Shown here: positions 1-25,174 of the stretch, piece after piece
Numbering within the stretch: position 1 is the first letter of the stretch
Layout: every line of letters begins with the position of its first letter
Source of the DNA: Candidatus Methanophagaceae archaeon
GTDB lineage: Archaea > Halobacteriota > Syntropharchaeia > Alkanophagales > Methanospirareceae
NCBI GenBank assembly: GCA_003194425.1
Contig: PQXB01000001.1
Span: 820,444 to 852,443, forward strand
Length of the DNA stretch: 32,000 bases
Reading direction: 5' to 3'
Notes under the pieces: model-generated
What the model was told of the DNA's origin: nothing
The model's input: the letters and a program-made list of their open reading frames with translations, nothing else
Databases searched by the model: none
Made by a program: the position numbers and the translations under genes

Positions 1-1689
1 TGATATAATCTTCGTCTCGTGAATCAATTTTAGATTCTGATTTTGTTTTTTGGTTTGGAGAAATATGTCTAACTATAGATTCAAATAAGGATCCAAATGG
101 ATGCTTTCTATCTACTCTATATTTATAAAAAAATTTTTCTATTGTTTTACCTGTATTTTCTATTGGAACTTTACGGAAGTAACTATCTTTCTTGTTCAGA
201 TCGTAATTGAGTTTGGCGTTGAATTTCGTTGAATAGTCTATTGAAAGAGCATAATTAAAAAAATCATTTTCATAAAAAGGAGATAAGAAATATTCATTAT
301 AATTCCTACCAACATAGCAATGATCATTCATATAACCATATATTCGATTTTCTATGACATAACGCTCAAATTGTTTTATATTATCTGTTGAATCATATTT
401 TCCTTTAATTGTTTCATAATTATACTCAATTTCCCTCTTGATGTTGTTTACTATATTTAAAGGCCAATTAAGGCGATTTATCTTTGAGATGTAATAGTCG
501 CTTGGCTTAACCATAGATGAAAACGTTCTCAAAAGGAATAATGTAATTTCATTAGGTAGAAAGTTAGAACTAATTAGCTCCATCTTCCTAAAAATATTTT
601 TAGAGCCACCAATTAAAAAATCAAGTTTTGTAGCTGCCATAATTGTATCACCAACTGTACCTTCTGTGAAGATACTGGAGGGATCAAAAGATTTATGAAA
701 ATCAACTAAATGAAGGTCTCCTTGTAATCTTTTTGTTTCTTGTATATCTATAAGTTGCTCATATTTCTCGGTCAGTTTTTTGAAATTTTTCTCCTTTTGT
801 TTTTCTCGCCCTATGAGTTTTATTTCTACATTTGGATAATTTTTTTTGAGAGCATTGATTAGATGCCCCGCATGATCCTCAGTCGTGTGTGTATAAGTAG
901 TAACTTTTAAGCTTTTTCTTAATAAATGAGCTAATAAATAGCTTGAATCCGTTCCTCCAGAGAAGCATAGAGATATTTTATATCTTTTATTTACTGGATT
1001 AAGCACTTTATCAATTGCATTTAGAAATAAATCCTCAATGTCTTCAAGATACGTTTTGTAATCCACGATTTTATTATCGATGTGGGGTTTATAAAATTTG
1101 TGAGTAAGTTTGTTGTTTTTTGGATTAAATGTATATATTGATAAATTATCTAATTATAGATCGTTTTCCTATTAAGAGTATGTTCAAGACTTAATAATTC
1201 TGCAATTGCCTCTTTACTGAGACTTATATGATTTTCCTTGGCTACTGGGAAAATAAATTTTATGGCTGGTGCCACACAAAAAATATTTCTGGATCTGTGG
1301 TAGTAAAGATCAAAGAGCGTATGGTAAGGTGTTATTATCTGCACAAGTTTCGGAGTTTTAATTACAATATTACCAAAGAAAGGTATTGTCTCAACGAAAT
1401 TTATTCCGTATTTATTATATAATTTTCCTATAAATTTTGCGCCATCATTAATCTCTTTGTCTTTACCTAAAATATAATCATCAAAAAAGATATGTGTGTT
1501 TTCTATTTTTGCATATGGAGTTGGATAAACACCCCAATTGATTAAACCACATAATTCTTTTTTAGAATATTGTTCAAAAATTTGACATTTTGGTTTCCTT
1601 TTTAATACATCTTTTAGAACTTTTTTGATGTATGTTTCTATTTCTTCCGCGTTTACATTGTTATAATAAAAAAGGCCTATATTGCTCAT
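1..1689 (-). pseudogene. Asparagine synthetase-like amidotransferase (AsnB family), apparently frameshifted; C-terminus runs off the window
   Basis: ORF 1150..1719 has a likely start at ATG 1689, with GGTGA 5 nt upstream and an ATGA overlap with the upstream stop. It has the layout of a class-II glutamine amidotransferase domain but begins MSNIG instead of MCGI. A second minus-strand frame is open from 1153 to position 1; it is absent from the ORF track because it has no in-window stop. That frame reads ...NKRYKISLCFSGGTDSSYLLAHLL..., the SGGxDS PP-loop of the AsnB synthetase domain (around 964-947). The two frames meet at TAG 1150-1152. One extra T in TATAATT^AGATAAT would join ...RKTIYN to LDNLSIYTFNP. 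Confidence 0.7.
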
Positions 1690-3018
1690 TCTTTCACCTC
1701 TCTCTGTTGAATATACCACCTATAATAACTCCATCGAGTAATGGAACAAACTGCGCAGCTTATAAAACTTACCCACGCAGCACCCATTGCTCCATATGCC
1801 GGTACTAAAAGAATATTCCCCATCAGATTTGATATACCCATAATAAAACTTGTATTTCGTAACTCAGTGCCCCGGGTGTGGGCGCTTAAAAAATTATTAT
1901 GTGGTAAAGTCAACCCAGAAACTAACCCAGCCAATGCAAGAGGCAATATCAAAGGAACAGTCGGCAAAAAGTTTTCGGTAAATAGCAAAACCACGATAAA
2001 CTTTCCAAATATCACCAAACCAGCAACACAAGCCGCAAGCCATAGAAAATTATAGTAAATAACTTTTTTAGGTATCCTTTTCATATCAACAAATCCTTTA
2101 AATAAACTCCTAGATAAAGCTTGAGAAAGTCCCACCATTGGCGCCGTAATCATCGTCATTGCTAAAGAATAAAATCCCAATTGTGTTGTGTTAACAAAAT
2201 ATGTGATGAAGTGTTGTGTTAACAAAATATGTGATGAAAATTCTGTCTAACTGGTATGTAGACTGGTCTACAATCTGACCTAAATAGAGATGAAATCCAT
2301 ATTCCTTATTCTTTTTCCATATTTCCTTCAAATTTTCTCTTATATTATTGAACAGGGGATGGAACGAATGCATAACAACAAGAACGCTGACAATCGTGCT
2401 GAAGATGCTCAATAATATGAAATGGAAAGGTTCAATTTGGATGATTTTCAAAAGCATCAGTGCTCCTAAAAGGTAAACGGCTGTGGGAATCACACTGAAG
2501 AGAGACAGCCTCTCGATCTTGTTCATACCTCTCCCGACCTGCGGGACTAACATGCCAAATGGCAGAGCAATTAACAGAAAAGAAGAATATCTCAGAATCC
2601 AACCGACATTTGTATTAAAAATATCATCAACAAAAAAACTCAGGAACAGTATAAAAAATGAATAAGATATTCCAATCAAAAAAGCTACAATAACCGAAGC
2701 CCCAGCTAATTCTCTCTCTTTTCTTTCATCTTTTGCCTGCGCAATCAGCAACCCACTCGCACTGAAGAATCCAAAACGAAAGAATAAAACAGTAAAAGAA
2801 GTAATAGTAAAGAAAAATGCTAAAATTCCATATCCTTCCGGACCTAAAACCCTTGTATTAATAATGCCAGTAAAAACACCTAAAAATAAGGCGGCAATCT
2901 GAGAGAGAAATAAGGTAGAAGTTTGCCTTCCAGTTTTCCCCATTAAATCCTTTTTAAATTCATATACTATGCTTTTTGCGTTTACCATCCTGAACCCCAA
3001 ACCATTCTTTATTTTCAC
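1686..3018 (-). pseudogene. MOP/PST-family (Wzx-like) polysaccharide flippase, split by a 28-bp tandem duplication
   Basis: Two multi-TM fragments: 2191..3018 (275 aa) and 1686..2225 (179 aa). Fragment 1 ends ...RIFITYFVNTTLHHIFC*. Fragment 2 begins (TTG)LTQHFITYFVNTTQLGF. The shared FITYFVNTT comes from the duplication 2183-2210 = 2211-2238. The span is 1333 nt; minus 28 it is 1305 nt, or 435 codons in one frame. Start is GTG 3018 (GTGA overlap with the wecC stop) or ATG 2988. Confidence 0.85.
2183..2238. repeat. Perfect 2 x 28-bp tandem duplication (gtgttgtgttaacaaaatatgtgatgaa)
   Basis: Read directly from the sequence. Bases flanking each copy differ, so the repeat is exactly 56 nt. Confidence 0.98.
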
Positions 3019-4268
3019 TGGGACCTTCCATCTCCCAGCAGCTTCACATCAAATCCCGCCTTTCCCCATCTTCCCATATCTAAAATATTTCTACAATCAA
3101 CCACGTTCCGTCTTCTCATCAACCTGAATATCTCCTCCGGCTCAATCTCTTTAAATTCAGAATGATCAGTAATAATCACGATACAATCGCTACCCCCAAC
3201 CGCATCTTCCAAACTTAAAATTTCATATTCAAATGTTTTGACATAAGGGTCATATATCTTAACATTATATCCCTCATTATCAGCCACTTTTATGAACTTC
3301 AACGCAGGCGTCTCCCTCGTATCATCAACATTTCCCTTATATGCGACGCCAAAAACCGTAATCATTGGGTCTCTAACATCTTCTAACATCTCTCTTACAA
3401 TCTGCAGCACATAGTTCAGCATAGAATCGTTGATCTCTCTTGCCAGTGAAATCATCCTGCATTTGGTCGAATTCTCAGTTAAGAACCAAGGGTCAATCGC
3501 AATGCAGTGTCCTCCTACACCCGGACCTGGGTTGAGAATGTTTACCCGTGGGTGCTTGTTCGCTAATTCTATAGCCCCCCTTATATTTATCCCGCTCTCA
3601 TCTGCCATCTGTGCAAACTCGTTAGCTAAAGCAATGTTTGCATCTCTATAAGTATTCTCCATCAACTTTACAAATTCTGCTGTTCTTATGTCAGTTAAAT
3701 ACAACTTTCCCGTGACAAAAGACGAATACAAATCCCTTGCAAGTTCTCCGGATTTTTTATCAAATCCACCGATTATTCTGTCGTTGTGTATCATCTCGTA
3801 GACGGTGTTTCCAGGTATAGCCCTCTCAGGACAATGAACAAAATAAAATTCCCCTACTTTTAATCCTCTCCTCTCCAGTATAGGAATTACCAGTCTTTCA
3901 CTGGTACCTGGGGGGACCGTTGACTCAAGAATTACAAGATTCTCTTTATTCAGGTGAGGGTAAATCATCTCTGCTGCAGATCTTACATATTTCAAATCCG
4001 CAACTTTTACCGCCTTCTCCAGGGGCGTTGGAACTGCAATTAAAAATACATCCGCAGCCTCAACCTCTGTTTTAGCAACAACATTCTTTTTTGTTTTCTC
4101 AAATAAATCATCGATTTCCGGCTCATCAAATGGGCTTTCTCCTCTGTTTATCTTCTCCACAACTTTTTCACTTATGTCAACGCCAATCACTTCATACTGT
4201 TGAGCAAATAGTAACGCGGTTGGCAACCCAATGTAACCTAATCCAAGCACACAGATCTTCATCGTCAT
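3015..4268 (-). CDS. wecC: UDP-N-acetyl-D-mannosamine dehydrogenase (UDP-sugar 6-dehydrogenase family)
   Basis: 418 codons from ATG 4268. The N-terminus MTMKICVLGLGYIGLPTALLFA is a Rossmann GxGxxG. The segment ...ANKHPRVNILNPGPGVGGHCIAIDPWFL matches the catalytic-Cys block of WecC/Cap5O-type dehydrogenases. ATGA overlaps the wecB stop at 4265-4268. The 26-codon extension in the ORF track lies inside wecB and is rejected. Confidence 0.85.
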   Translation of the reverse strand: MTMKICVLGLGYIGLPTALLFAQQYEVIGVDISEKVVEKINRGESPFDEPEIDDLFEKTKKNVVAKTEVEAADVFLIAVPTPLEKAVKVADLKYVRSAAEMIYPHLNKENLVILESTVPPGTSERLVIPILERRGLKVGEFYFVHCPERAIPGNTVYEMIHNDRIIGGFDKKSGELARDLYSSFVTGKLYLTDIRTAEFVKLMENTYRDANIALANEFAQMADESGINIRGAIELANKHPRVNILNPGPGVGGHCIAIDPWFLTENSTKCRMISLAREINDSMLNYVLQIVREMLEDVRDPMITVFGVAYKGNVDDTRETPALKFIKVADNEGYNVKIYDPYVKTFEYEILSLEDAVGGSDCIVIITDHSEFKEIEPEEIFRLMRRRNVVDCRNILDMGRWGKAGFDVKLLGDGRSQ

Positions 4269-5372
4269 TGTTTCCCTCTTCCCCGCTCCTTTAAAATCTT
4301 GATTATCCGCCTCCCAGCTTCGCCGTCTCCAAAAGGATTTTTCCAATTCTTTTCTCTATTATTTATCATTAATTTAGCACATTCTAAAACTTCTTCAGGA
4401 TTTGTTCCAGCTAGGATATTCGCACCCACCTCAAGAGTTTCAGGTCTCTCTGTATTATCTCGCAAAGTAACACAAGGAACCTTCAATACGCAGGACTCTT
4501 CTTGAAGACCTCCGGAATCAGTTAAAACCAACCTTGCATTTGCCTCTAACTGTAGAAAATCCAGATAGCCTGCAGGCTTAACTAACCTTACCCCTTCTGG
4601 AATTTTTAGCCGAAACTCTTCTAACTTTTTCTCTGTTCTCGGATGAATCGGATAAATTATAACAAAGCCAAACTCTTTGTGCACTAAATCCAATCCCTTT
4701 AGAATCTGCCCTAACCTCTTTTTATCGTCTACGTTTTCTTGTCTGTGTGTAGTGACGAGTAAGAATTCCCTACTTTTTAAGTTCAATCGGTCTAAAATCC
4801 TTGATTTCTCTTTGCCTATTTCCAAATTCTGAAAGACCGCGTCTACTACTGTGTTCCCGGTAATGAAAATTTTGTTTGCGTCAATTCCTTCTTTTATTAG
4901 ATTCTCTCTCGACTTTTCAGTCGGTGCGAACAACAAATCCGAAACATGATCAGCTACAACTCTGTTTATTTCCTCTGGCATATTTCTGTCATAACTCCTT
5001 AAACCCGCCTCAATATGCCCCACTTTGATGTGCAACTTCACCGCCGCCAGAGCACCCGCCAATGTTGAGTTCGTGTCTCCGTAAACAAGAACAATCTCGG
5101 GCTTCTCTCTAACCAAAACTTTTTCAATCCGCTTCAGCCCCTCGCCTGTCTGGTAGCCGTGCGAGCCCGAGCCGACGCCGAGATAATAATCAGGCTTCGG
5201 AATCTTCAACCTTCGGAATCTTCAACTCCTCAAAGAATAGTTTTGAGAGGTTGTAGTCGTAGTGCTGCCCTGTGTGTAAGCAGACATTCTTTATTCTTCC
5301 GCTGCTCGCTTTTAAGACTGGTGCTAATTTTATGAACTGCGGTCTGTTTCCAGTTATATGCAGTATTTTCAT
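4265..5372 (-). pseudogene. wecB: UDP-N-acetylglucosamine 2-epimerase (non-hydrolysing), split by a 16-bp tandem duplication
   Basis: The N-terminal fragment 5190..5372 reads MKILHITGNRPQFIKLAPV...HTGQHYDYNLSKLFFEELKIPK. The C-terminal fragment 4265..5209 reads (TTG)KIPKPDYYLGVGSGSHGYQTGE.... Together they make a complete WecB. The span is 1108 nt; minus 16 it is 1092 nt, or 364 codons, reading ...FFEELKIPKPDYYLGVGSGSH.... Confidence 0.9.
5195..5226. repeat. Perfect 2 x 16-bp tandem duplication (cttcggaatcttcaac)
   Basis: Read directly: 5195-5210 = 5211-5226. Flanking bases differ. Confidence 0.98.
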
Positions 5373-5447
5373 TTTGTTACACCCTCACACACTTACTACA
5401 ATCCAACCCTTTTTCTCTTACATAATTCCAAAGAAAAATGATAACAT

Positions 5448-5636
5448 TCAGTACCTCTTCCTGTAAATCTCATCGTGATGTCCCAAATCGAGGAATCTAA
5501 CCATCTTACCTTCCTCTTCTATTTCAAAGACTAAAAAAAAGGACTTCTCCAAACGAACTCGCCTCAAACCCTTTAAATCATACCTTAACGGTTTGTAATG
5601 GTAGGGATTTTCTATTATCGCTTCTACACTCTTCAT
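5448..5636 (-). CDS. RelE/ParE-like toxin, unusually short (62 aa)
   Basis: The segment ...ENPYHYKPLRYDLKGLRRVRLEKSFFLVFEIEEEGKMVRFLDLGHHDEIY... matches the C-terminal two-thirds of RelE/ParE toxins (nP..g.pL.g.l.g..r.R.g.yR.iy.i.....v.i..i.hR...Y). The usual ~25-aa N-terminal strand and helix are missing. It sits directly downstream of a small acidic ORF. Confidence 0.6.
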   Translation of the reverse strand: MKSVEAIIENPYHYKPLRYDLKGLRRVRLEKSFFLVFEIEEEGKMVRFLDLGHHDEIYRKRY

Positions 5637-5638
5637 TA

Positions 5639-5878
5639 CTACATCGTAGAGTTTTTTAAATCTTCAATATTCGAGAATGTTTCGAAATCTCCTTCTTTCC
5701 TTATCTCCTCTAACTTCTCCAAATACTCCTCTTTTACCTCGTAGAACGCGTCGGTGTGCATTTCAACAAGTGTCTCAAGCATCCCCTCCAACCCTTCTAC
5801 TCTTCCCTTAAGGCTTTTCACATCTTCTAATACCTGCCTCATCATTCCCCTCTCTTCTAGTTCCATCATTTCAAACAC
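5639..5878 (-). CDS. Putative antitoxin partner (small acidic coiled-coil protein)
   Basis: 79-aa E/K-rich ORF ending 2 nt before the toxin ATG, with the junction ATG TAG TAA TGA. Its tail ...IRKEGDFETFSNIEDLKN resembles the ...FEAGRYYTLKTEKDIDKF tail of the antitoxin relic at 20621-20770. Start is GTG 5878 or ATG 5869. The function is inferred from position only. Confidence 0.45.
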   Translation of the reverse strand: MFEMMELEERGMMRQVLEDVKSLKGRVEGLEGMLETLVEMHTDAFYEVKEEYLEKLEEIRKEGDFETFSNIEDLKNSTM

Positions 5879-5901
5879 CTAATCTTATTTTGGCAGCCAC
5901 A

Positions 5902-5909
5902 TATTTAAA
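5902..5909 (-). promoter_or_regulatory. Candidate archaeal TATA box (TTTAAATA) for the RelE-like module
   Basis: On the minus strand: TTTAAATA, then 23 nt, then GTG 5878. TATA-to-start spacing fits a leaderless or very short-leader transcript. Motif-level call only. Confidence 0.3.
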
Positions 5910-5965
5910 GGATGCAAGAAAGGTAATGCCGACATCAAATGCGAATTTCTTGAGGGGTTGTATAA

Positions 5966-7180
5966 TTATCTCTTTTTATTCTTGTGTTCTCTGACAGCGC
6001 TCTCACACACCTCCGCAACTCTTCTCGCAACACTCTCCCAACTACGATTCTTTACCACATATTCTCTCCCCCTCCTTCCCATCTCTTCCCTCAACTTCTT
6101 ATCTTTCAGGAGTTTTATTATTGCTTCTGCTAATTCCTCGGGATTCTCCGGTTCAACTAATATTCCTGCGTTCTGCTCTTCTAAAATCTCAAATCCACTT
6201 ATTCTACTCGCGATCACAGGTTTTTTACAAGCCATATATTCACACAACTTTAAGGGGGAGTATCCAGATTTTAAAGGTTTTTTAGGAACAACACACACAT
6301 CACACGCATTAATATGTAGAGGGACTTTCTCATAAGGCACAGCACCAGTGAAGATAAACTTCTCGGAGACGCCAATTTGCTCACTAAGCTCTGTTAATTC
6401 TTTCCTTAAGGAACCATCACCAACCATCAAGAACCGGGTGTTAGGATAATTTCCCAATATATATGGAGCACTTCTTATAAAATAATCAATTCCCTGATAG
6501 GCAGCAAAAGTACCACTATAGCATATATAATAATAATTTTTTTCAAGATTTAGTTTCTTCCTTGCTTCTGTGATAGAGATTGGCTTAAACAACTCCGTGT
6601 TTGCTCCGTTTTGAATTTCTACCATCTTATCTTCAGGAATCCCATAATCTCTTTGGAGAGTCTCTTTCAGTCTTGATGTAACAACAATAATTTTATCGGC
6701 TCTTGGCAAAGTGAATCTCTCTATTTTGTCAATAATATGTAATGAGATGCCCTTTGCTCGCCCGGCAATTTCCATTTCGTCCACGACTATGCCATTCACT
6801 TCTTTGACCACAGGGATTTTAAAAAATTTAGCTAGGAAGTAGCCACTGTTAAATAAAGTGTGACGTATATAAGCCACATCAGGCATCGATTTCTGCCGCA
6901 TTATTACAACAAAACCAATAAGAAAAATACGAAGATGAGCCAAGAAATATAGAAGTAACCAGAATATTGGTGAAGTCTCCCCTAACCGCTCTAATATTGA
7001 TGACTTCGTCTCAACGACGATTTCCTCTTCAGATTCCGGACGATCGGTATTTAAGTATATTAAATTATGCCCTTCTTTAAGCAGCGATGTCAGCACTTCA
7101 TAAATATGAACGGATTCAGTTCCCAATCTCCTGGTTTTTAAAACACCATAATAAAAAATGTTCATTCTTTTCATCGCCAC
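5966..7180 (-). CDS. GT4-family (GT-B) glycosyltransferase
   Basis: 404 aa. The C-terminal lobe motif ...GYSPLKLCEYMACKKPVIASRISGFEILEEQNAGILVEP is an E(x7)E-type Glycos_transf_1 signature. Confidence 0.85.
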   Translation of the reverse strand: MAMKRMNIFYYGVLKTRRLGTESVHIYEVLTSLLKEGHNLIYLNTDRPESEEEIVVETKSSILERLGETSPIFWLLLYFLAHLRIFLIGFVVIMRQKSMPDVAYIRHTLFNSGYFLAKFFKIPVVKEVNGIVVDEMEIAGRAKGISLHIIDKIERFTLPRADKIIVVTSRLKETLQRDYGIPEDKMVEIQNGANTELFKPISITEARKKLNLEKNYYYICYSGTFAAYQGIDYFIRSAPYILGNYPNTRFLMVGDGSLRKELTELSEQIGVSEKFIFTGAVPYEKVPLHINACDVCVVPKKPLKSGYSPLKLCEYMACKKPVIASRISGFEILEEQNAGILVEPENPEELAEAIIKLLKDKKLREEMGRRGREYVVKNRSWESVARRVAEVCESAVREHKNKKR

Positions 7181-9450: not shown

Positions 9451-9541
9451 CCCTCCATCTTATCTTAAAACGTGGCATCATACCTTAGCTTAAATCATCC
9501 AAGTAAAAAAATTTCTTTACTAACGTTTTTTCCTTCTTAAC

Positions 9542-10483: not shown

Positions 10484-10484
10484 T

Positions 10485-11115
10485 TTAGTTTAACACCTCC
10501 TTGAACAAAATAAATGCCTCTGCTAATTTTCTGTTACATTCCATACCTCTCATTTTAGCAAATGTTTTAAACCCTTCTTCGGAGCGAGGATTTGGATATT
10601 CCCTGGTTTCTGTCTCATAATATAACATAGCTTTTATTTTGTTGTTTAACAATTCTTCTGTTAGTTCTATATAAAGGTTAGGTGCAAAATGAATAGTTGA
10701 AGAAGGAACCTCGTATACTAATATTTTATCAATATTTCTGCATGCTACTCTACAAGCCTGATAAACTGCTCTGTGGTCTTGATTGCTGTCATTTTCGTTT
10801 GGAATATACGCTATATCTGGCTTCACCGTGGTTACCACATCCTCAATCGCTATTATACTCTTTATCAAACTTTCATCTAAATGCTCATCTCTCAATCCAC
10901 AAAAGAAATATTTCTCTATCCCAAGTAGTTCCTTAACTTTTTGTGCGCTTTTTTTGGTTTGGGCAGTATAAATATCGTCAATCTTATGACCCAAGACCCT
11001 GTTGGCAACAACATTAACAAACACTGCATCTCCCCTCTCTTTGTGCCATTGAATTGCTCCACCCGTACCTAACAACTTCATCATCTGCATGTGGAGCGAT
11101 TATTAAAACTTTCAT
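10485..11115 (-). pseudogene. PIG-L/LmbE-family N-acetyl-sugar deacetylase with a +1 frameshift near the N-terminus
   Basis: ATG 11115 (ATGA overlap with the upstream stop) opens MKVLIIAPHADDEV, the PIG-L AHPDDE motif. That frame stops after ~36 codons. The track ORF 10485..11090 continues LGTGGAIQWHKERGDAVFVNVV...SNQDHRAVYQACRVA in another frame. The span is 631 nt = 3n+1. Removing one G at ~11073 gives APHADDEVLGTGGAI. Confidence 0.8.
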
Positions 11116-13511: not shown

Positions 13512-13924
13512 TTTATCGCCTTTTCCCTGATATAATCGTAAAATCTGTATTTAAACGCTTCAAAATCCTTTATCGTCTCGGTAGCCGTTTCATATAAAAA
13601 CCGCTTATCCTCGCAGTAAATTTCTCTTCCCTTCAAGACCTCAACTCTTACATAAAGAGGGAGTTGCTGAAAAATCTGAATATCATAAACATCATCGAAG
13701 AGTTCTGAAAGGAGTTTTAACCTGAATCTTGAGGACTCCTTTTGTCCTCCCTCATAATATATGCAGAAGTCAATATCTGAGCCCTCAACCATCTGCCCCC
13801 TTGCTGCTGAGCCATACAAGAAGATGAATTTCACCTTCTCAAATCCCGCTACATTCTTTATTCTTTGCAGCATAATCTTACTATCTTTTTCAAGGTGGCG
13901 TATCTTCGCTGCTGGTATTTTCAT
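13508..13924 (-). CDS. Minimal nucleotidyltransferase (MNT) antitoxin of an MNT-HEPN pair
   Basis: ...FIFLYGSAARGQMVEGSDIDFCIY is the GSx10-12[DE]xD pol-beta NTase motif. The first 8 codons, MKIPAAKI, are identical to the aminotransferase start and are part of a duplicated segment. The native start may be the internal MLQRIKN (13873). Confidence 0.85.
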   Translation of the reverse strand: MKIPAAKIRHLEKDSKIMLQRIKNVAGFEKVKFIFLYGSAARGQMVEGSDIDFCIYYEGGQKESSRFRLKLLSELFDDVYDIQIFQQLPLYVRVEVLKGREIYCEDKRFLYETATETIKDFEAFKYRFYDYIREKAIK

Positions 13925-13983
13925 TTTCTCTCCTCTCTCTTCCTCTCCTCTCTCTTCCTCTCCTCTCTCTTTCTCTATTCTCT
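13901..13983. repeat. Direct repeat copy B (83 bp; one extra 15-bp unit)
   Basis: Same sequence as copy A plus an extra tcctctcctctctct unit, then 13 nt with 1 mismatch. It contains the stop codon of the upstream methyltransferase (13975-13977). Confidence 0.95.
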
Positions 13984-14676: not shown

Positions 14677-14683
14677 TCCCTTT

Positions 14684-17717: not shown

Positions 17718-19478
17718 TCATTCCACCTCCTTCAAATAATACTCCCTCCTCCGCCTCTCGACAACCTCACCGATCAAATACTTTATAAGCCTCGGATTCA
17801 ACATCTTCACCATCTGCACACCCGCACTTCTTCTAAACCTCCGTTCACCCATCTTCTCTAAAATCTCTTTAGCCACCGTTGACGCACTGTATCGGTGTGG
17901 CATCTTGAACTCATTTTCCAGAACTCGTCCTGCCTCTCTTTTCTCGTAGCCCAATCTCCCCAAAACATACTCAAGTTTTTCAGGAATTACACCGTGTGCC
18001 GCTTCGTGAAGAGAGGCGGTAATTGAAACGAACGATTTTGCAGCCGCAGTGATTTTGTTTTCCTTCAATACCGCAACGAACTCGTCAATCTCGCCCTCGT
18101 TCATCCTCGCGAGCGTGTAGAGAAAAGAGTAATATTCGCCAAGCAGATACAAATATTCTGTGAGTGAATGAATAATCACTATTCCCAAATCGAGTTCAGG
18201 CGTCGGCGTCTTAACCCTTACCTCCGCCCCTGACTGTATTTTTCTGTTAATTACGCGTCCTCTGAACTTGTCCTTGTCCATATAAATGAGATGACTCAAC
18301 TCCAACTGCCACTGCAGGTCTATAATTATCTTCGCATCTCGGTCAATGAGGTCGGGGATTGTCGAGCCGCTCACTACTGCTCCTTCTTTGTCTTTGTAGC
18401 CTGCCTCGTGAAAGATTTCGTAGGATTTCTTGTAGACGTCGTAATCGTCCAGAATTAGAAGGTCAACATCGCCCGGAACCGCAGCGTAAGGTCTGATCGT
18501 CTTGAACACGACATATTCGATGCCCGAAGCATCAAGAGTTCTCGAAATTTTTCCCACCCCTTCCAAAAACTTTAAATACCTCTCCTGCTCTTCATCGTAT
18601 TTATCTCTTAGTTTATCCAATCTTCCCTGCTGCTTGAGTGCCTTCAGGTAGAGCAGCGAGATTTTGTTCTTGACTGCGAGGTCGTAGAGTTCAAGAGACT
18701 CGGTACCGTTAACGAAAGGCGGTTTGTTTGGTAGAAAAGGAGAGCCTATCGTTTTTAGAAGTTTCATTGTTTGGCTCGAGTTTTTAGTGTTTTTAGATTC
18801 AAATACCTCTTCTCGCACCCGCTCTTTCAGTTCTGCTAAATCTTTACTCCCGTCCAATCTCTTCATTTTATATTCCTTACCAATCTCTAAATAAACCTTC
18901 CTCCGCTCCTTTAAATAGCTTAGGGACGGCGTGTCTTCTTTTCTCTGAAACGCCGTCTCCTCTGGCAAATCAATCAGAAAAACCAAGTCCGGCTCAGGTG
19001 CAATCCGAAAACAGTTCTCAATCAAACCCCTCAAATGGCTAAAATCAGCCTCCGCCTCCTCTCTCGGAATATCATTCATCACCGTGTCATAAACATACCT
19101 GTCGCAAACAACCGTCCTTCCGAGCCTCTTCGGAAGAATTATCTTGGCAAGGAGCTGGAGAGAATAGTCGAACAGCAAATATTTCTGATAAACTGACGAC
19201 ACTAACGAAAACCTCCTCACCGCATCCCTCTTGGCACTTGAATAATCTTCGTACTCTCTTATGTTCCGCCCGTGCAGAAACAGAAACTTCCCAATCTCCA
19301 ATGCAGGTCTCGCCAGAAAGGGCTTGTATCTGCCGTAAACATAATTGCATTTCACCCCCCTCCTCTTCATCTCCGCAGCCAAAAACCTTGCCAGCGTCGT
19401 CTTGCCAGCACCGTCCATTCCAGTAAAACAAATCAACTTAGCCTTTGCCCTTCTCATTTTCCTTGACGAGTTTTTCAT
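17718..19478 (-). CDS. Fusion protein: thymidylate-kinase-like P-loop domain + NTP_transf_5-like (uncharacterised pol-beta superfamily) nucleotidyltransferase domain
   Basis: 586 aa. The N-terminal domain has KLICFTGMDGAGKTTLARFL (P-loop) ...DRYVYDT...FLIDLPEETAFQR. The C-terminal domain has ...VVFKTIRPYAAVPGDVDLLILDD...VVERRRREYY. The two halves align with the separate genes 24519..25025 and 22409..23503. Start is ATG 19478 or ATG 19457. Confidence 0.8.
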   Translation of the reverse strand: MKNSSRKMRRAKAKLICFTGMDGAGKTTLARFLAAEMKRRGVKCNYVYGRYKPFLARPALEIGKFLFLHGRNIREYEDYSSAKRDAVRRFSLVSSVYQKYLLFDYSLQLLAKIILPKRLGRTVVCDRYVYDTVMNDIPREEAEADFSHLRGLIENCFRIAPEPDLVFLIDLPEETAFQRKEDTPSLSYLKERRKVYLEIGKEYKMKRLDGSKDLAELKERVREEVFESKNTKNSSQTMKLLKTIGSPFLPNKPPFVNGTESLELYDLAVKNKISLLYLKALKQQGRLDKLRDKYDEEQERYLKFLEGVGKISRTLDASGIEYVVFKTIRPYAAVPGDVDLLILDDYDVYKKSYEIFHEAGYKDKEGAVVSGSTIPDLIDRDAKIIIDLQWQLELSHLIYMDKDKFRGRVINRKIQSGAEVRVKTPTPELDLGIVIIHSLTEYLYLLGEYYSFLYTLARMNEGEIDEFVAVLKENKITAAAKSFVSITASLHEAAHGVIPEKLEYVLGRLGYEKREAGRVLENEFKMPHRYSASTVAKEILEKMGERRFRRSAGVQMVKMLNPRLIKYLIGEVVERRRREYYLKEVE

Positions 19479-20508: not shown

Positions 20509-20770
20509 CTAGTTCTTCTTTGGCTCATCCTCTGTAAACCCCTTTCCTGTGTTTTTAATCTTTTCATTTGGTTTAATCTTTTCATTTGGCTCTTGAACTT
20601 TTCAGATAGCTCTATTTAAGTCATTCTTCCTCTAGATCGCTAAAGAATTTATCAATATCTTTCTCTGTTTTGAGTGTGTAATATCGCCCTGCCTCAAAAT
20701 CCCTCTCGCTCTCCTCGATACCACTCATCAAATCTTCATCACTCAAAATCTCAAGCTTTGTCCTATTTAT
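20509..20770 (-). pseudogene. Relic of a RelB/RelE-type TA module between two GT genes
   Basis: 20770-20621 reads INRTKLEILSDEDLMSGIEESERDFEAGRYYTLKTEKDIDKFFSDLEEE*, an antitoxin-like C-terminus with no proper start. An overlapping ATG then reads M-T-TAA-IELSEKFKSQMKRL..., a RelE-like N-terminus with a stop at codon 3. It is truncated by the next GT start. Confidence 0.45.
20554..20589. repeat. Perfect 2 x 18-bp tandem duplication (tttaatcttttcatttgg)
   Basis: Read directly: 20554-20571 = 20572-20589. It lies inside the toxin relic, producing SQMKRL/NQMKRL. Confidence 0.97.
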
Positions 20771-21955
20771 TTAAATATTCAAAACCTTCTCATAAACCTT
20801 CTCCGTCTCTTCTGCAATCCGCTCCCACGAATAATCTTCAACTTTCTTCCTGCCATTTCTCCCCATCCTTCTTCTTACTTCCTCGTTCTCCAATAAATAA
20901 ATTATCGCTTCTGCCAACGCTTCCTCGTCCTTTGGCGGAACTAACACACCATTCTCTCCATTTTTTACCACATCAGGAACACCGCCAATCTTAGACGCCA
21001 CAATCGGGACGCTACAAGCCATCGCCTCTAAATTCACGATTCCAAAGATTTCATGTTTCATCACCGAAGGCAAACAGAAAACATCTGCCGAGTTGTAATA
21101 AAACGGTTTCAAACGCTCCTCGACAAATCCTGCAAATTTTACATATTTTCCAAGACCTAACTTTCTCGACAATGCCTCAAGTTCTTCTTTCATTCTACCA
21201 CTTCCAACGAAGACTAATTTAGTATTTGGAATGTTTTTTATTATTTTTGGCATCGCTTTCAACAAAACATCAGGTCCCTTGTGCGGGCTGAGTGTTCCAA
21301 CAAATAATATAATCCTGCTGTCAATAGGCAAATCTAACTTCTCCCTGCATTCTTCTTTTGAATAATGAAGGTCAAAATCCTCTATATTTATCCCGTTTGG
21401 AATTACAACAATCTTATCTCTGTATTTCCCTAAAAACTGTGATTCATTGATGTAATATTCTGAAGGCGAGATTATGACATCTGCATAAGATAAAATTTTG
21501 TCAAGAAGAAATTTGTTGTAAAAATAAACGCTAATTCTTCGAGCAAAACCACCCATATTTTCTTCTAAGTCCCCATGATATGTAACCACAAGCGGAAGTT
21601 TCTTCTTTTTTGCACATCTTAGCCCTGCAATGTCTCCTATAGGAACAGAAATATGAGTATGGATGAGGTCAGTAGGATATTTTACAGAATTTTTTAGAAG
21701 TCCAAATGAAAATCTTCCGCTTGCAACGCTGAGATTGGTTCCGTATCTGTATATTTTTATATTTTTGTGTTCTTCAATTTCATCTTTAGAATCGGCGGAT
21801 GTAGTAAAAATCGATATTTCGTGTCCTTCGTGTCCTTTTTCTGCTAAATAAGATGCTAAATTCTCTGCAGCAGCTTCGGCACCACGAACAGTATATTTTT
21901 CATCAACTATTTTGCTTCTGTAGGGAAAATGAGTGATAAAATAATTTATTTTCAT
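20771..21955 (-). CDS. GT4-family glycosyltransferase
   Basis: 394 aa. ...CLPSVMKHEIFGIVNLEAMACSVPIVASKIGGVPDVVKNGENGVLVPP. Confidence 0.85.
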   Translation of the reverse strand: MKINYFITHFPYRSKIVDEKYTVRGAEAAAENLASYLAEKGHEGHEISIFTTSADSKDEIEEHKNIKIYRYGTNLSVASGRFSFGLLKNSVKYPTDLIHTHISVPIGDIAGLRCAKKKKLPLVVTYHGDLEENMGGFARRISVYFYNKFLLDKILSYADVIISPSEYYINESQFLGKYRDKIVVIPNGINIEDFDLHYSKEECREKLDLPIDSRIILFVGTLSPHKGPDVLLKAMPKIIKNIPNTKLVFVGSGRMKEELEALSRKLGLGKYVKFAGFVEERLKPFYYNSADVFCLPSVMKHEIFGIVNLEAMACSVPIVASKIGGVPDVVKNGENGVLVPPKDEEALAEAIIYLLENEEVRRRMGRNGRKKVEDYSWERIAEETEKVYEKVLNI

Positions 21956-22377
21956 ATTCCCTCTTCATAAACTTTTTCAACCAAACAAACTATCTTTCCC
22001 CAATCATACCATTTTGCGCTTTCAATACATTTCCTTTTCATTTCTCTTTTCCTATTCAATGTTACCAATATTCCTTTCCTAATTTCTTTTTCTGAAAGCT
22101 CACATACAATCCCATTCTCATTTCTTATAAAATCACATACTGCATTCCTTTTATGATTCACTGTAACAACCGGCAATCCACATGCATTCGCCTCTAACGC
22201 AACAATCCCAAATCCTTCTCTTGTCGAAGGCAGGATAAATATCTCAGATGACTTCATATATGAGATCACATCATCATAATCTTCTAAAAAGCCTACAAAC
22301 TTAATGTTATCCTCTAATCTCAAATCATAAACAGCACCAGAAAGAAGTTTTATCAACTTCACCGTTCCATCCCTCAC
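21952..22377 (-). pseudogene. 5'-truncated GT4 glycosyltransferase (C-terminal ~140 aa only)
   Basis: ...FILPSTREGFGIVALEANACGLPVVTV... is the C-lobe of a GT4 enzyme. The frame is closed by a stop at 22384-22386 and opens only with GTG 22377. The ~220-aa N-terminal lobe is absent. It still has an ATGA overlap with the downstream GT4 gene. Confidence 0.7.
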
Positions 22378-22408
22378 AAATAGTTACAGCATTAGCATTT
22401 TTCCTATA

Positions 22409-23503
22409 TTAATATGTCTCCCTCCTCCTTCTCTCAACTACTACTCTAATTACATACAACATTGTTTTTGGATTCAGTATTTTTAACATTTGCCACATAA
22501 TACTTTTTGCTGCTTTTTTTTCTTTCATTTTTTCAAGCAATATAATAATTATAGTCAAAAAAAGGTATTTATGCGGTGTTTTGAGTATTTTTTTATACAG
22601 TTTAGTTGTTTCAAAATTATTCTTTCCCAGCTCTGATGTTATGATTCTTATTTTCTCAGGTATAAAGCCATGTGCTACTTCATGAAGAACTGCAATTATA
22701 GAAATTACTGTTTTAACGGCGAATGTTATATTGTTTTCTTTGACAATACTAATAAAATCATTAATATCCTCAGCATTCATTTTGGATAGGTAATGAAGTG
22801 CTGTATAATAAAGGTGCAATGTAAAGATTTGTTCAGGGAATATAGAATGCACAAATACCGTAGCTAATTCTGCTCCTGGCTTTAGAATACTTATGTTCTC
22901 TTCAAATAGTGCTGTTTTAGTTACGTGTTTCTCAAGTAGATTTTTATCAAGATAAATAATATTTATTGCTCCTAATTCTCGGTATAAATCTATATCATAA
23001 ATATCCTTCTCCTTTGGATTTTTGTGTTTTTCATTCCTTGCATCGTGTATCATCACTTCTAAAGGTGCTTCTCCAATAACATCATAGCCGCTCTTTTTTG
23101 CAGTTTTAATAATCTCTTCGAACTGATTCCACGAATTAAAAATCAGAATGTCTACATCGTTTGGTACAAAAGAAAAGGGCATAAGACTCTTTACGACACA
23201 ATATTTGATTTTTTTGGAATTTAATAAACTAGAAATTCTAACTGCCGTAGTTAGATGTTCTCTCTGATTTTTTTTGTGTTTTTCATATTCTGATTGAAGT
23301 TTATTTAAACAACCCTCCTCTTTAAGCGCCTCTAAATATAATAAACCTATCTTATTCTTTTCCGCACACTCATATAGTTTTAAATCTTCTTTTTTATTTT
23401 CAAACAGCTCTTGTTCTGATGCAAATGGAGAGCCTATTGTTCTTAAAATCTTTACAGTTGCATTCATTGAAACATCTTCCTCTTTATCGTATGACAAAAC
23501 CAT
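22409..23503 (-). CDS. NTP_transf_5-like nucleotidyltransferase (stand-alone paralog of the C-terminal half of 17718..19478)
   Basis: KILRTIGSPFASEQ...LKLYECAEKNKIGLLYLEALKEEGCLNKL...VVKSLMPFSFVPNDVDILIFNS...VVERRRRETY is colinear with residues ~240-586 of the fusion protein. Confidence 0.75.
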   Translation of the reverse strand: MVLSYDKEEDVSMNATVKILRTIGSPFASEQELFENKKEDLKLYECAEKNKIGLLYLEALKEEGCLNKLQSEYEKHKKNQREHLTTAVRISSLLNSKKIKYCVVKSLMPFSFVPNDVDILIFNSWNQFEEIIKTAKKSGYDVIGEAPLEVMIHDARNEKHKNPKEKDIYDIDLYRELGAINIIYLDKNLLEKHVTKTALFEENISILKPGAELATVFVHSIFPEQIFTLHLYYTALHYLSKMNAEDINDFISIVKENNITFAVKTVISIIAVLHEVAHGFIPEKIRIITSELGKNNFETTKLYKKILKTPHKYLFLTIIIILLEKMKEKKAAKSIMWQMLKILNPKTMLYVIRVVVERRRRETY

Positions 23504-23565
23504 TGTTTCTTTTTTTAAATAACTTTTTCACCCTTTTATTTGAGTACCTTTTTTGCTCGTTGAAT

Positions 23566-24328
23566 TTAAAAGTGCGTTGACAATCCCCTTTTTTGACATA
23601 CTTCTAGCACATCTGGATGGAACTCCTGAGCCTGAAACAGGAATGTCCCTCGAACATAGCCAGCCAACCAGCCCCAAAAACATCGTCCAAATGGACCCAT
23701 TTTTTTCAGCCACCGTCCTAACCAAAAACTTGGCGAATCAAAATTAGAGCGAGCCGCCTTCTGAATAGTCCCTCGAAGGTGCCCTATGTATCGGAAACCA
23801 TTTAACTCGAATGTTTTGATCCAAACTGCTCTGCTGTGGTCATTAATGTGTTCGACATCAATCTGTATCCTCAATGTGCGCCACCACCATCTTGCTTCGA
23901 AAGGGGGGGTGGGCGTCATAATAAACGCAATTCCTCCGGGCTTCAAAACTCTATACGTCTCTGAAATTAGTTTGCCAGGCCTCTGCAAATGTTGTAATAT
24001 TTGTTGTGCTATTACTAAATCAAATTGTTTTTCACTAAAGGGAAGAGGTTCAAAATCAATATCTACCTGACTAAGGTATCCTCTAACTGATTCTCTGGCA
24101 TGGAGAAGGGCATTTTTGGAAATATCAACACCATAAGCTTCGATATTCGATGATCTAAGCGCATGAACAAGCTCTCCGGTATTACAAGCCAATATCCAAT
24201 GCTGTACCTACTGGGAATCTTTGAACCAAATCTCTTGCTATCAAGTTAAAGAAAGGATTGTCTTTTTGCACAGGACTGAATGTTCCTTCCTTTTCGAAAA
24301 GGCCTTTGAGCGGATTCGTTTCTGGCAT
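23566..24328 (-). pseudogene. Class I SAM-dependent methyltransferase with a +1 frameshift inside motif I
   Basis: AGGAG, then 7 nt, then ATG 24328 opens MPETNPLKGLFEKEGTF...FPVGTALDIGL*. The track ORF 23566..24192 continues (TTG)ACNTGELVHAL...VLKPGGIAFI. The span is 763 nt = 3n+1. Removing one T at 24186-24187 gives ALDIGCNTGEL, a canonical motif I. Confidence 0.8.
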
Positions 24329-24518
24329 GTTAAAACTCCTCTTTACATATTAGATAGTTCTTCTTAATTCCTATTTTCAGGTAAAGCCCCTCTATTGGAT
24401 TCATCGAAATATCTCTCCTTTTCTATTTCGCATTCCAATTCCTCTAATTTTTTCGAGCCATCTAAAATCGTCATATTACATTCTTTTCCCACGTATAGAT
24501 CCCTCTTTCTCCTTTCTT

Positions 24519-25025
24519 TTACCTTTGGTATGCTATTTCTTCTGGTAAATCAACTAAAAAAGCGGTGTCCGGCGTTGGAAATAAAGACAAAATCTTATCC
24601 AAAAACTTCTTAACCTCTTCTTGGGAATAATTGAAGTCCACAGATAAATCTGTAACAATTGTATCATAGATGTAGCGATCACAGATGATATTTTTACCAA
24701 AAAGCAGTGGAAGTTTAATTTTGAAAAGAATTTGGATGAAATAGTCAAACAATAAAAGATGTTGATAAAACTTCGCTAAAAGAGGGTGCTTTTTTGAGGT
24801 GTTCTTTTTTGTATTGGAATATTCAGAATAATCTCTGGAATAAGCTTTATTACTGAGAAATAATAATTCCCCTACGAGCATAGCAGGTCTTAAGACAATT
24901 GGAATATAGCGGTTATATACATAACTCGCTTTGATGCCTCTCTTTTGCATTGTGCCAACTAATGCTCTTGTAAGCGTCGTTTTTCCTGACCCGTCCATTC
25001 CAGTAAAGCAAATAAATACACCCAT
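24519..25025 (-). CDS. Thymidylate-kinase-like P-loop protein (stand-alone paralog of the N-terminal half of 17718..19478), C-terminally truncated
   Basis: MGVFICFTGMDGSGKTTLTRAL...CDRYIYDT...FLVDLPEEIAYQR* is colinear with the fusion protein. Start ATG 25025 is preferred over TTG 25043. The missing C-terminal ~50 residues are still encoded out of frame at 24519-24364. Confidence 0.75.
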   Translation of the reverse strand: MGVFICFTGMDGSGKTTLTRALVGTMQKRGIKASYVYNRYIPIVLRPAMLVGELLFLSNKAYSRDYSEYSNTKKNTSKKHPLLAKFYQHLLLFDYFIQILFKIKLPLLFGKNIICDRYIYDTIVTDLSVDFNYSQEEVKKFLDKILSLFPTPDTAFLVDLPEEIAYQR

Positions 25026-25174
25026 ATTATTCTTCGGATTCAATACTTGGACGTGGCAACATAAAGTTAATCCGCTTTGCAGGTATTTGAAACATGAAGG
25101 CTATATTGAAAAGAACGTTCAAATCTAACATCTCTCCCACTGTTCCAGGATTCTTTGCTCCTCCCTTCTTCTTT

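What the first reader, a model, noticed from the sequence alone, without database searches (positions are those of the whole stretch)
1..25043. Hypothesis: the glycan island is either switched OFF by reversible duplications or is in wholesale decay, with at least 7 disrupted genes in 25 kb
Seven lesions are seen directly. (1) AsnB-like gene: -1 frameshift at ~1150. (2) Flippase: +28 duplication. (3) wecB: +16 duplication. (4) PIG-L deacetylase: +1 at ~11073. (5) GT4 gene: reduced to its C-terminal third (21952-22377). (6) Methyltransferase: +1 at ~24186. (7) Kinase-like gene: tail out of frame (24364-24519). A third perfect tandem duplication (18 bp, 20554-20589) lies in a TA relic. Each frame break is supported by conserved motifs continuing in the new frame, and the span lengths equal 3n+1, 3n+16 or 3n+28. 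In Streptococcus pneumoniae, capsule phase variation is known to operate through spontaneous tandem duplications inside capsule genes that later excise precisely. The two duplications here, in the flippase and in the first committed ManNAc(A) step, would be an archaeal analogue. I am not aware of this being described in archaea. The alternative reading is relaxed selection after a replacement glycan locus was acquired.
Basis: partly seen in the sequence, partly recalled or inferred. Interest (0 to 1): 0.8.

Follow-up and report, generated by a model that had tools for sequence, protein, structure and literature searches.

The report
Decaying surface-glycan gene island in ANME-1
A 25-kb cluster of cell-surface sugar genes in an uncultured methane-oxidising archaeon (ANME-1) carries many real, recent gene-breaking mutations, two of them short tandem duplications, and the evidence favours ordinary gene decay in a fast-changing genome island over a reversible on/off switch.

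Summary
The lesions are real. The window comes from an ANME-1 (Methanophagales) MAG. An independent assembly of run SRR6664617 reproduces the window base for base over 19 kb. Environmental contigs that are 97-99.9% identical carry intact versions of the broken genes.

Lesions private to this lineage:
- 13-bp deletion in the AsnB-like gene (not a 1-base loss)
- 28-bp tandem duplication in the flippase
- 16-bp tandem duplication in wecB
- ~1.3-kb deletion that fused two wecB paralogues
- ~96-bp deletion in a ParE toxin module
- +1 in the PIG-L gene
- +1 in a methyltransferase gene

The kinase-like break and the 18-bp duplication are older and are shared with all relatives. The GT4 stub sits at a recombination junction.

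The reversible-switch reading is not supported. Reverting both duplications would still leave five irreversible lesions. No intact allele of this haplotype appears among 5.8 billion proteins. Perfect 12-29-bp tandem duplications, mostly without flanking microhomology, are the commonest mid-size indel among these ANME-1 populations (8 events). They therefore look like a mutational signature. Other populations carry independent lesions in the same ManNAcA module. Verdict: a pseudogenised, strain-variable glycan island. Moderate interest.

The parts
1..1719 (-). AsnB-superfamily-like gene (PP-loop SGGTDSS), broken by a 13-bp deletion at ~1150. The 3' end runs off the window.
   Evidence: Full-length 610-615-aa homologues exist at 98/90/79% identity. 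Nucleotide alignment with L035 shows the missing AAAATTCTAAAAT. NCBIfam asn_synth match (E 1.8e-10, below cut-off) spans the break. No Pfam hit.
1686..3018 (-). Wzx-type oligosaccharide flippase (Polysacc_synt), split into 275-aa and 179-aa ORFs.
   Evidence: L013 encodes an intact 420-aa orthologue.
2183..2238 (.). Perfect 28-bp tandem duplication that frameshifts the flippase. No flanking microhomology.
   Evidence: Absent from L013, which is otherwise identical around the site.
3015..4268 (-). wecC (UDP-ManNAc dehydrogenase), intact.
   Evidence: Three UDPG_MGDP_dh domains. NCBI PXF51941.1.
4265..5372 (-). wecB (UDP-GlcNAc 2-epimerase). Chimera of wecB1 (5' part, down to ~4990) and wecB2 (3' part), then frameshifted.
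   Evidence: Sliding identity against the two tandem paralogues of L009 switches from ~99% wecB1 to ~99% wecB2 at ~5047-4987. The repaired ORF matches Epimerase_2 at E 2e-119.
5195..5226 (.). Perfect 16-bp tandem duplication that frameshifts wecB. No flanking microhomology.
   Evidence: Absent from L008, L009, L036, L037, L044 and L045.
5448..5878 (-). ParE-type toxin/antitoxin pair reduced to a relic by a ~96-bp deletion that removes the antitoxin end and the toxin start.
   Evidence: The toxin is 92 aa (L008, L009) or 88 aa (L045) in relatives against 62 aa here. Junction at 5656-5664.
10485..11115 (-). PIG-L family deacetylase gene with a +1 insertion (TTTT to TTGTT on the coding strand) at 11073.
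   Evidence: Six relatives encode 209 aa. The window also has a private Cys-to-Ser change.
20509..20770 (-). Relic of a small toxin/antitoxin-like pair. It contains the perfect 18-bp duplication at 20554-20589.
   Evidence: Stops in all frames. Both duplication copies are present in L014-L019, so the duplication is old and fixed.
21952..22377 (-). GT4 glycosyltransferase stub (C-terminal ~36% only). Recombination junction at 22332.
   Evidence: Pfam positions 65-170 of 172. All nine relatives lose similarity exactly at 22332.
22409..23503 (-). 364-aa NTP_transf_5-like gene, intact. Paralogue of the C-terminal domain of the 586-aa protein.
   Evidence: 36% identity to residues 235-581 of the 586-aa protein. 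Identical protein in eight other samples.
23566..24328 (-). Class I SAM methyltransferase gene with a +1 (T to TT) at 24186/7 in motif I.
   Evidence: Intact at 253 aa in seven relatives (L026, L027, L029-L033). An eighth, L034, also lacks this extra base but carries its own +1.
24364..25043 (-). dTMP-kinase-like gene with a frame break at ~24520. Truncated in all relatives too.
   Evidence: 43% identity to the paralogue, 9-residue gap at the break. Relatives encode 159-168-aa fragments.
17718..19478 (-). Intact 586-aa kinase-like + NTP_transf_5-like fusion protein, used as the reference paralogue.
   Evidence: Pfam. Cluster members of 582-586 aa, mostly 585.

Best explanation
The window is the low-GC, strain-variable cell-envelope glycan biosynthesis island of an ANME-1a (Methanophagales) genome. 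The genome was reconstructed from a sample or culture sequenced as SRR6664617, probably the G37 Guaymas enrichment.

In this lineage the ManNAcA-type glycan pathway encoded here is genetically dead. Seven private mutations have accumulated in genes that near-identical environmental relatives keep intact:
- 13-bp deletion in the AsnB-like gene
- 28-bp tandem duplication in the flippase
- ~1.3-kb deletion that fused the two wecB paralogues
- 16-bp tandem duplication in that wecB fusion
- ~96-bp deletion in a ParE module
- +1 in the PIG-L gene
- +1 in a methyltransferase gene

These sit on top of older relics: a kinase-like pseudogene, a GT4 stub at a recombination junction, and a toxin/antitoxin relic.

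The duplications are simply what mid-size spontaneous indels look like in these organisms. Perfect head-to-tail copies of 12-29 bp, usually with 0-2 bp of flanking microhomology, dominate the indel polymorphisms among ANME-1 populations at this island. In-frame duplications survive in working genes. Out-of-frame ones survive only where selection no longer purges them, or where it favours loss.

Shown: the lesions exist, they are private, relatives are intact, and other populations carry independent hits. Inferred: loss of function, relaxed or loss-favouring selection, and the order of events.
For: Source and reality of the lesions:
- Source identity.
- Lesions reproduced by an independent assembler.
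- The likely source data are Illumina MiSeq paired-end plus mate-pair reads (PMC5947290).

Each private lesion is absent from relatives:
- 28 bp against L013.
- 16 bp against six contigs.
- +1 in PIG-L against six contigs; +1 in the methyltransferase against eight.
- 13-bp deletion against L035 and three full-length protein clusters.
- wecB chimera.
- ParE deletion.

No intact allele of this haplotype.

Tandem duplication as a signature:
- Eight independent perfect duplications (29, 28, 19, 18, 16, 15, 14, 12 bp) against three other indels of 12 bp or more.
- Flanking microhomology is 0-2 bp.

Independent hits in the same module in other populations:
- L037: 190-bp deletion of the wecB1 start.
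- L044 and L045: deletion from wecB1 to the wecC tail.
- L008: 14-bp duplication at the wecB2 end.
- L034: its own +1 in the methyltransferase.
- L026: 19-bp duplication in the kinase relic.

Island character: GC is ~30-45% across the island against 52-58% at the conserved right end. The island is mosaic among relatives.
Against: - Substitution data are too sparse to show relaxed constraint. Private changes are N33:S20 in intact genes and N4:S4 in broken genes.
- Some segments are almost identical to intact relatives. There are zero private substitutions in 22332-27972, yet a +1 lies there. The lesions are therefore very recent, and seven in 25 kb is many for pure drift.
- Roughly 19 of ~28 island genes remain intact, so 'wholesale' overstates the decay.
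- Whether wecB, flippase and similar functions are supplied elsewhere in the genome is unknown.
- Read-level allele frequencies were not examined.
Confidence: 0.72

Rival explanations
1. Reversible phase variation. The 28-bp and 16-bp tandem duplications switch the flippase and wecB OFF. They can excise precisely to switch the glycan back ON, as in the pneumococcal capsule genes cap3A, cap8E and tts.
For: - Both are perfect, frame-breaking, two-copy duplications in key genes, and one-copy removal restores full ORFs.
- Duplications of the same kind arise repeatedly in related populations.
- The pneumococcal precedent exists (Waite et al. 2001, 2003, as cited in PMC4022640).
- Perfect repeats are intrinsically prone to copy loss.
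Against: - Five further irreversible lesions lie in the same island and haplotype. These include a +1 in the PIG-L gene, a +1 in a methyltransferase gene and a 13-bp deletion.
- No ON allele with this haplotype's markers was found for wecB, the flippase or PIG-L in 5.8 billion proteins.
- The 9.5-kb Logan contig is unbroken across both sites.
- The 18-bp duplication has stayed fixed in six relatives.
- Duplications in relatives hit different sites, including an existing pseudogene.
Confidence: 0.07
2. Selected loss. Knocking out the surface glycan was advantageous, for example as escape from viruses that use it as a receptor, or as adaptation to consortium or enrichment life. Loss-of-function alleles therefore swept through repeatedly and independently. 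This differs from neutral decay after the pathway became dispensable.
For: - Several populations have independently destroyed the same wecB-wecC module by different mutations.
- Lesions are very recent relative to substitutions, with zero private substitutions in 5.6 kb around the methyltransferase +1.
- The ratio of disruptive indels to private substitutions in the broken genes is high.
- Variable glycan islands are classically linked to virus pressure (own knowledge: Rodriguez-Valera et al. 2009).
Against: - One knock-out in wecB or the flippase would suffice. Six further hits are better explained by neutral follow-on decay.
- Toxin/antitoxin modules and an already dead kinase gene are hit as well, which points to a lack of purifying selection.
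- No virus or receptor evidence is available here.
Confidence: 0.2
3. Artefact. The frame breaks are sequencing, assembly or MAG-consensus errors, or a chimera of co-existing strains.
For: - The source is a MAG.
- SRR6664617 may be the same library from which the MAG was built, so only the assembler is independent.
Against: - A second assembler gives 100% identity over 19 kb, including every lesion covered.
- The lesions are 13-, 16-, 28- and ~96-bp events. The two +1s are not in homopolymer runs of three or more.
- The probable data are Illumina reads.
- Four lesions are linked on one 9.5-kb contig.
Confidence: 0.03

Closest known systems
Pneumococcal capsule phase variation by spontaneous tandem duplication (cap3A, cap8E, tts; Waite et al. 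2001, 2003)
   Same: Perfect tandem duplications of tens of bp inside polysaccharide-synthesis ORFs cause frameshifts. Removing one copy restores the ORF.
   Different: - Here no ON allele is seen.
- The same haplotype carries other irreversible lesions.
- The duplications are a general indel class across the island and across populations.
- Reversion has not been observed.
Flexible 'metagenomic' glycan islands of prokaryotic populations (O-antigen, S-layer glycosylation and agl clusters; own knowledge)
   Same: - Atypically low GC and a mosaic gene order between near-identical strains.
- Glycosyltransferase, flippase and sugar-modification genes, with gene fragments at recombination junctions and embedded toxin/antitoxin modules.
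- ANME-1 genomes are reported to have highly variable hotspots (PMC13385816).
   Different: This copy carries an unusually dense set of private frame-breaking mutations. The ANME-1 hotspot study did not retain variants of 50 bp or less, so this class of lesion was not catalogued there.
Spontaneous tandem duplications in archaeal mutation spectra (Sulfolobus acidocaldarius pyrE assays)
   Same: Tandem duplications are a recognised class of spontaneous 'large' mutation in an archaeon (PMC7785828).
   Different: Here they are seen as natural polymorphisms in an uncultured euryarchaeon, not in a selection assay. Most lack flanking microhomology. The mechanism is unknown.
Pseudogene accumulation under relaxed selection or bottlenecks (host-restricted or laboratory-adapted prokaryotes)
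   Same: Multiple independent small indels inactivate genes of one dispensable pathway, while orthologues in close relatives stay intact.
   Different: Only one island could be examined. Genome-wide pseudogene load and dN/dS could not be established.

Membership tests
Duplication-mediated phase-variable locus (pneumococcal cap3A type) | Perfect tandem duplication inside the ORF causes the OFF state | tested here: met
   28-bp and 16-bp perfect duplications. One-copy removal restores the ORFs.
Duplication-mediated phase-variable locus (pneumococcal cap3A type) | ON and OFF alleles co-exist or interconvert in one population | tested here: not met
   - No intact allele of this haplotype in 5.8 billion proteins.
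- The Logan contig is continuous through both sites.
- Read-level frequencies were not testable.
Duplication-mediated phase-variable locus (pneumococcal cap3A type) | The duplication is the only defect, so excision restores the phenotype | tested here: not met
   Private 13-bp deletion, two +1 insertions, ~96-bp deletion and a paralogue fusion in the same island.
Duplication-mediated phase-variable locus (pneumococcal cap3A type) | Measured reversion at high frequency | not testable with these tools
   Needs culture or deep read data.
Pseudogenised (decaying) gene cluster | Frame-breaking or truncating lesions in genes whose orthologues are intact in close relatives | tested here: met
   Intact orthologues: flippase 420 aa, wecB1 359 aa, wecB2 364 aa, PIG-L 209 aa, methyltransferase 253 aa, AsnB-like 612 aa.
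Pseudogenised (decaying) gene cluster | Lesions of several unrelated mutational types | tested here: met
   Tandem duplications, single-base insertions, small and large deletions, and a recombination junction.
Pseudogenised (decaying) gene cluster | Relaxed constraint on substitutions (dN/dS near 1) | tested here: inconclusive
   Only eight polarised substitutions in broken genes (N4:S4), against N33:S20 in intact genes.
Pseudogenised (decaying) gene cluster | No expression or function of the fragments | not testable with these tools
   The paper's expression table is not held.
Flexible glycan genomic island | Atypical composition and mosaic gene content among near-identical strains | tested here: met
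   - GC is ~0.29-0.49 across the island against 0.52-0.58 at the flank.
- Synteny breaks at 22332, ~1930 and ~15395.
- A radical-SAM cassette is present or absent between relatives.
Asparagine synthase (AsnB) family, for the gene at 1-1719 | Match to the family model above its curated threshold; N-terminal Cys glutaminase nucleophile | tested here: not met
   - No Pfam hit.
- TIGR01536 scores 40.5 bits against a cut-off of 267.
- The protein starts MSNIG, with no Cys2.
- Only the PP-loop SGGTDSS is kept. It is a distant superfamily relative, not AsnB.

The most novel reading that the evidence does not exclude
In ANME-1, a replication or repair peculiarity generates microhomology-independent perfect tandem duplications of 12-30 bp at high rate. 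Because such duplications can excise precisely, they act as a population-level, stochastic and reversible on/off mechanism for surface-glycan genes. This would be an archaeal counterpart of pneumococcal capsule phase variation, and the other lesions would hit only accessory genes.
Probability: 0.08. Interest if true: 0.75.

Novelty: new member of a known kind. Interest (0 to 1): 0.3.

Why it matters
- For annotation: this ANME-1 genome almost certainly cannot make or export the ManNAcA-type glycan encoded here. Several 'hypothetical proteins' in the NCBI record (for example C4B55_04165 and C4B55_04205) are gene fragments.
- For ANME biology: cell-envelope glycan islands turn over by cassette exchange and by frequent small indels, even between populations that are 99.9% identical. 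That bears on virus-host and consortium-partner interactions.
- For mutation research: natural ANME-1 polymorphism gives a first glimpse of an indel spectrum dominated by perfect short tandem duplications without microhomology. Public read sets could quantify this genome-wide.

Tried and rejected
- Genome-contig scan with wecC: found only distant bacterial homologues. The source species is not represented there with this island.
- dN/dS and polarised private substitutions: too few changes to separate relaxed from purifying selection.
- Searches for an intact (ON) allele with the repaired wecB and the repaired flippase, and inspection of intact PIG-L cluster members: only the truncated fragments are 100% identical.
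- PDB profile search for the AsnB-like family: nothing found.
- Supplementary expression table of Krukenberg et al. 2018: not held, so transcriptional silence could not be tested.
- Laso-Perez et al. 2023 and an S-layer review: no mention of glycan islands or duplication-based phase variation in archaea.
- Transposon footprints (target-site duplications left after excision) as the origin of the duplications: rejected, because the lengths vary (12-29 bp) and no IS or transposase is nearby.
- Programmed frameshifting or split-gene function: considered, but there are no slippery motifs or conservation of the split state. Relatives are unsplit.
Full report
SOURCE AND GENE CONTENT

Exact protein look-ups place the window on a 1,187,124-bp contig of an NCBI MAG named 'Candidatus Methanophagaceae archaeon' (ANME-1). 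Its locus tags are C4B55_041xx-042xx and its proteins PXF515xx. The contig size fits the G37 ANME-1a draft of Krukenberg et al. 2018: 1.40 Mb, 5 scaffolds, 52% GC, Illumina MiSeq paired-end plus mate-pair reads, SPAdes (PMC5947290). That attribution is an inference.

All island genes lie on the minus strand. Pfam identifies a typical envelope-glycan cluster:
- a Wzx-type flippase, wecC and wecB
- five full-length GT4 glycosyltransferases plus one stub, and two GT2
- a DUF2206 membrane protein
- an NAD-dependent epimerase, a PIG-L deacetylase and a DegT aminotransferase
- four methyltransferases, a radical-SAM enzyme and a CDP-alcohol phosphatidyltransferase
- a dTMP-kinase-like/NTP_transf_5-like fusion protein
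- HepT/MNT and UPF0175 toxin/antitoxin modules

GC is 0.29-0.49 across the island and 0.52-0.58 at the conserved right flank, which carries RNase P protein genes.

THE OBSERVATION

- Tandem Repeats Finder and direct reading confirm perfect duplications of 28 bp (2183-2238), 16 bp (5195-5226) and 18 bp (20554-20589).
- The window holds six perfect tandem repeats of period 12-40. Third-order Markov simulations give 0.005.
- Deleting one copy restores a 424/434-aa flippase and a 363-aa UDP-GlcNAc 2-epimerase. The latter matches Pfam Epimerase_2 at E 2e-119.
- The PIG-L gene changes frame between ...HADDEV and LGTGGAI. The methyltransferase changes frame inside motif I. The kinase-like gene continues out of frame after ...EEIAYQR. 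The 141-aa GT4 ORF covers only model positions 65-170 of 172.

ARE THE LESIONS REAL?

Logan assemblies of run SRR6664617, made with a different assembler, give contigs 100% identical to window 1-9262, 9338-13045 and 22284-28710. They therefore contain every lesion except the 18-bp duplication and most of the GT4 stub (only its junction end, 22284-22377), which fall outside those contigs. The lesions are 13-, 16-, 28- and ~96-bp events. The two single-base insertions (TTTT to TTGTT, and T to TT) are not in long homopolymers. Artefact is very unlikely. SRR6664617 may, however, be the library from which the MAG was built.

COMPARISON WITH RELATIVES

Cluster members and one metagenome scan yielded about 35 environmental contigs that are 93-99.9% identical to parts of the island. 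Many come from JGI and ENA hydrothermal-sediment metagenomes. An indel-by-indel comparison gave these results:
- The 28-bp copy is absent from L013, whose flippase is intact at 420 aa.
- The 16-bp copy is absent from L008, L009, L036, L037, L044 and L045.
- The extra base at 11073 is absent from six contigs, which all encode a 209-aa PIG-L protein.
- The extra base at 24186/7 is absent from eight contigs. Seven encode a 253-aa methyltransferase. L034 carries its own +1.
- The AsnB-like gene has full-length homologues of 610-615 aa at 98, 90 and 79% identity. Alignment with L035 shows that the window lacks 13 bp (AAAATTCTAAAAT), so the lesion is a deletion with a net -1.

- Relatives have two tandem wecB paralogues. 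The window's single wecB is ~99% wecB1 down to ~4990 and ~99% wecB2 beyond. It is therefore a fusion left by a ~1.3-kb deletion, and it then acquired the 16-bp duplication.
- The ParE toxin/antitoxin pair next to it has lost ~96 bp, including the toxin start.

Three features are older or of a different kind:
- The truncated kinase-like gene is shared by all relatives (159-168-aa fragments).
- Both copies of the 18-bp duplication are present in all six contigs that cover it.
- All nine relatives covering the 364-aa gene lose similarity exactly at 22332. The GT4 stub therefore marks a recombination or deletion junction.

TESTS OF THE SWITCH HYPOTHESIS

A duplication-based switch predicts that the duplication is the sole defect and that ON alleles co-exist with OFF alleles. 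Neither prediction holds.
- The same haplotype carries five other, irreversible lesions. Four lesions are linked on one 9.5-kb contig.
- Searching 5.8 billion proteins with the repaired wecB chimera returns only the truncated 314-aa fragment at 100% identity. The next hit is 84%.
- The repaired flippase likewise returns only the 275-aa fragment at 100% identity. The best full-length hits are 87-88%.
- All intact PIG-L proteins carry Cys where the window has a private Ser.
- The 18-bp duplication shows that such repeats can persist unexcised across lineages.

Low-frequency reversion cannot be excluded without reads.

A MUTATIONAL SIGNATURE

An all-against-all comparison of the window and the related contigs (95% identity or more) lists all indels. 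Among those of 12 bp or more there are:
- eight independent perfect tandem duplications: 29 bp in L016, 28 and 16 bp in the window, 19 and 12 bp in L026, 18 bp in L034, 15 bp in L019, 14 bp in L008
- three other events: one in low-complexity sequence, the 13-bp deletion, and one inside a 15-bp repeat array

Five duplications have no flanking microhomology and three have 1-2 bp. The L016 case is a gain of a third copy. Several are in frame or lie in relics. L026's 19-bp duplication sits in the already broken kinase gene.

Tandem duplication is a recognised class of spontaneous mutation in Sulfolobus acidocaldarius (PMC7785828). The ANME-1 structural-variant survey did not retain events of 50 bp or less (PMC13385816). 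The two duplications here are therefore best read as the local form of spontaneous indel.

RECURRENT LOSS

Other populations have damaged the same ManNAcA module in different ways:
- L037 lacks 190 bp, including the wecB1 start.
- L044 and L045 join wecB1 codon ~96 to the last 65 codons of wecC.
- L008 has a 14-bp duplication at the wecB2 end.
- L034 has its own +1 in the methyltransferase.
- Fragmented UDP-sugar dehydrogenase genes occur in L014-L017 and L020.

The module is therefore dispensable, or its loss is favoured, in many ANME-1 populations.

NEUTRAL OR SELECTED?

Divergence is too low to decide. Private substitutions are N33:S20 in intact genes and N4:S4 in broken genes. Some segments have no private substitution at all (22332-27972) yet carry a private +1. 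The lesions are therefore recent, and seven in 25 kb is many for drift alone. Given the slow growth of ANME-1 (own knowledge), most lesions probably predate the enrichment. This is inference.

Follow-on decay after a first knock-out, possibly started by selection for glycan loss, is the most economical account.

COMPARISON WITH KNOWN SYSTEMS AND VERDICT

The anatomy of the two duplications matches pneumococcal capsule phase variation (Waite et al. 2001, 2003, cited in PMC4022640). Two defining features of that system were tested here and not met: a sole defect, and co-existing ON alleles. The locus fits the known picture of flexible glycan islands and of pseudogene formation.

The 'AsnB-like' label is only a distant superfamily resemblance: TIGR01536 scores 40 bits against a cut-off of 267, there is no Pfam hit, and there is no N-terminal Cys.

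Overall this is a well-documented but ordinary case of gene decay. It has one modestly new side-result, the duplication-dominated indel spectrum in ANME-1. Interest 0.3.

Noticed in passing
window 12983-13101 and 13868-13986: A 119-nt direct repeat (84% identity) brackets the HepT/MNT toxin-antitoxin cassette. It duplicates the 5' end (MKIPAAKI...) and the CT-rich 15-bp repeats of the downstream aminotransferase gene. The cassette looks as if it was inserted with duplication of the target gene's start.
   Followed up: partly
window 10430-10502; L020, L022, L023, L024: In four relatives a radical-SAM gene cassette (~1.4 kb) sits between PIG-L and the epimerase. It is flanked by a 73-bp direct repeat of the PIG-L end and epimerase start. 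The window and L025 lack the cassette and have one repeat copy. This is the same insertion/deletion architecture as the HepT/MNT cassette.
   Followed up: partly
window 17718-19478 versus 22409-25043: The 586-aa dTMP-kinase-like + NTP_transf_5-like fusion protein has a split paralogue: a kinase fragment, then an inserted methyltransferase gene, then the 364-aa domain gene (43% and 36% identity). The function of this protein family in glycan islands is unknown.
   Followed up: partly
L008, L016, L019, L026, L034 (related contigs): Perfect tandem duplications of 12-29 bp, mostly with 0-2 bp of flanking microhomology, are the commonest indel of 12 bp or more among ANME-1 populations at this island. 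The generating mechanism is unexplained, since slippage normally needs flanking repeats.
   Followed up: partly
window 30541-30596, 13040-13088, 9692-9731, 30116-30191: In-frame short tandem repeats lie inside intact genes: 18 bp x3 encoding GKGKGR in the Rpp30-like RNase P protein, 15 bp x3.3 at the aminotransferase N-terminus, and 9 bp x4.4 (KEV) in the epimerase. A 15-bp x5 array next to the Rpp30-like gene varies in length in L019.
   Followed up: no
window 21460-21626 and 27973-28059: Two short tracts carry dense clusters of differences from otherwise ~98-99% identical relatives. They look like imported recombination tracts inside a GT4 gene and a GT2 gene.
   Followed up: no
P0005, P0006 (PIG-L relatives of window 10485-11115): Some otherwise near-identical intact PIG-L relatives have APDGDDE in place of the conserved APHADDE motif. 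The change affects the motif His that PIG-L-family enzymes usually use for metal binding (own knowledge).
   Followed up: no
window 1-1719; P0178-P0180: The AsnB-like PP-loop protein family has only three 90%-identity clusters in 5.8 billion proteins and no Pfam model. It appears to be a narrow family with no named relatives in the collection.
   Followed up: partly
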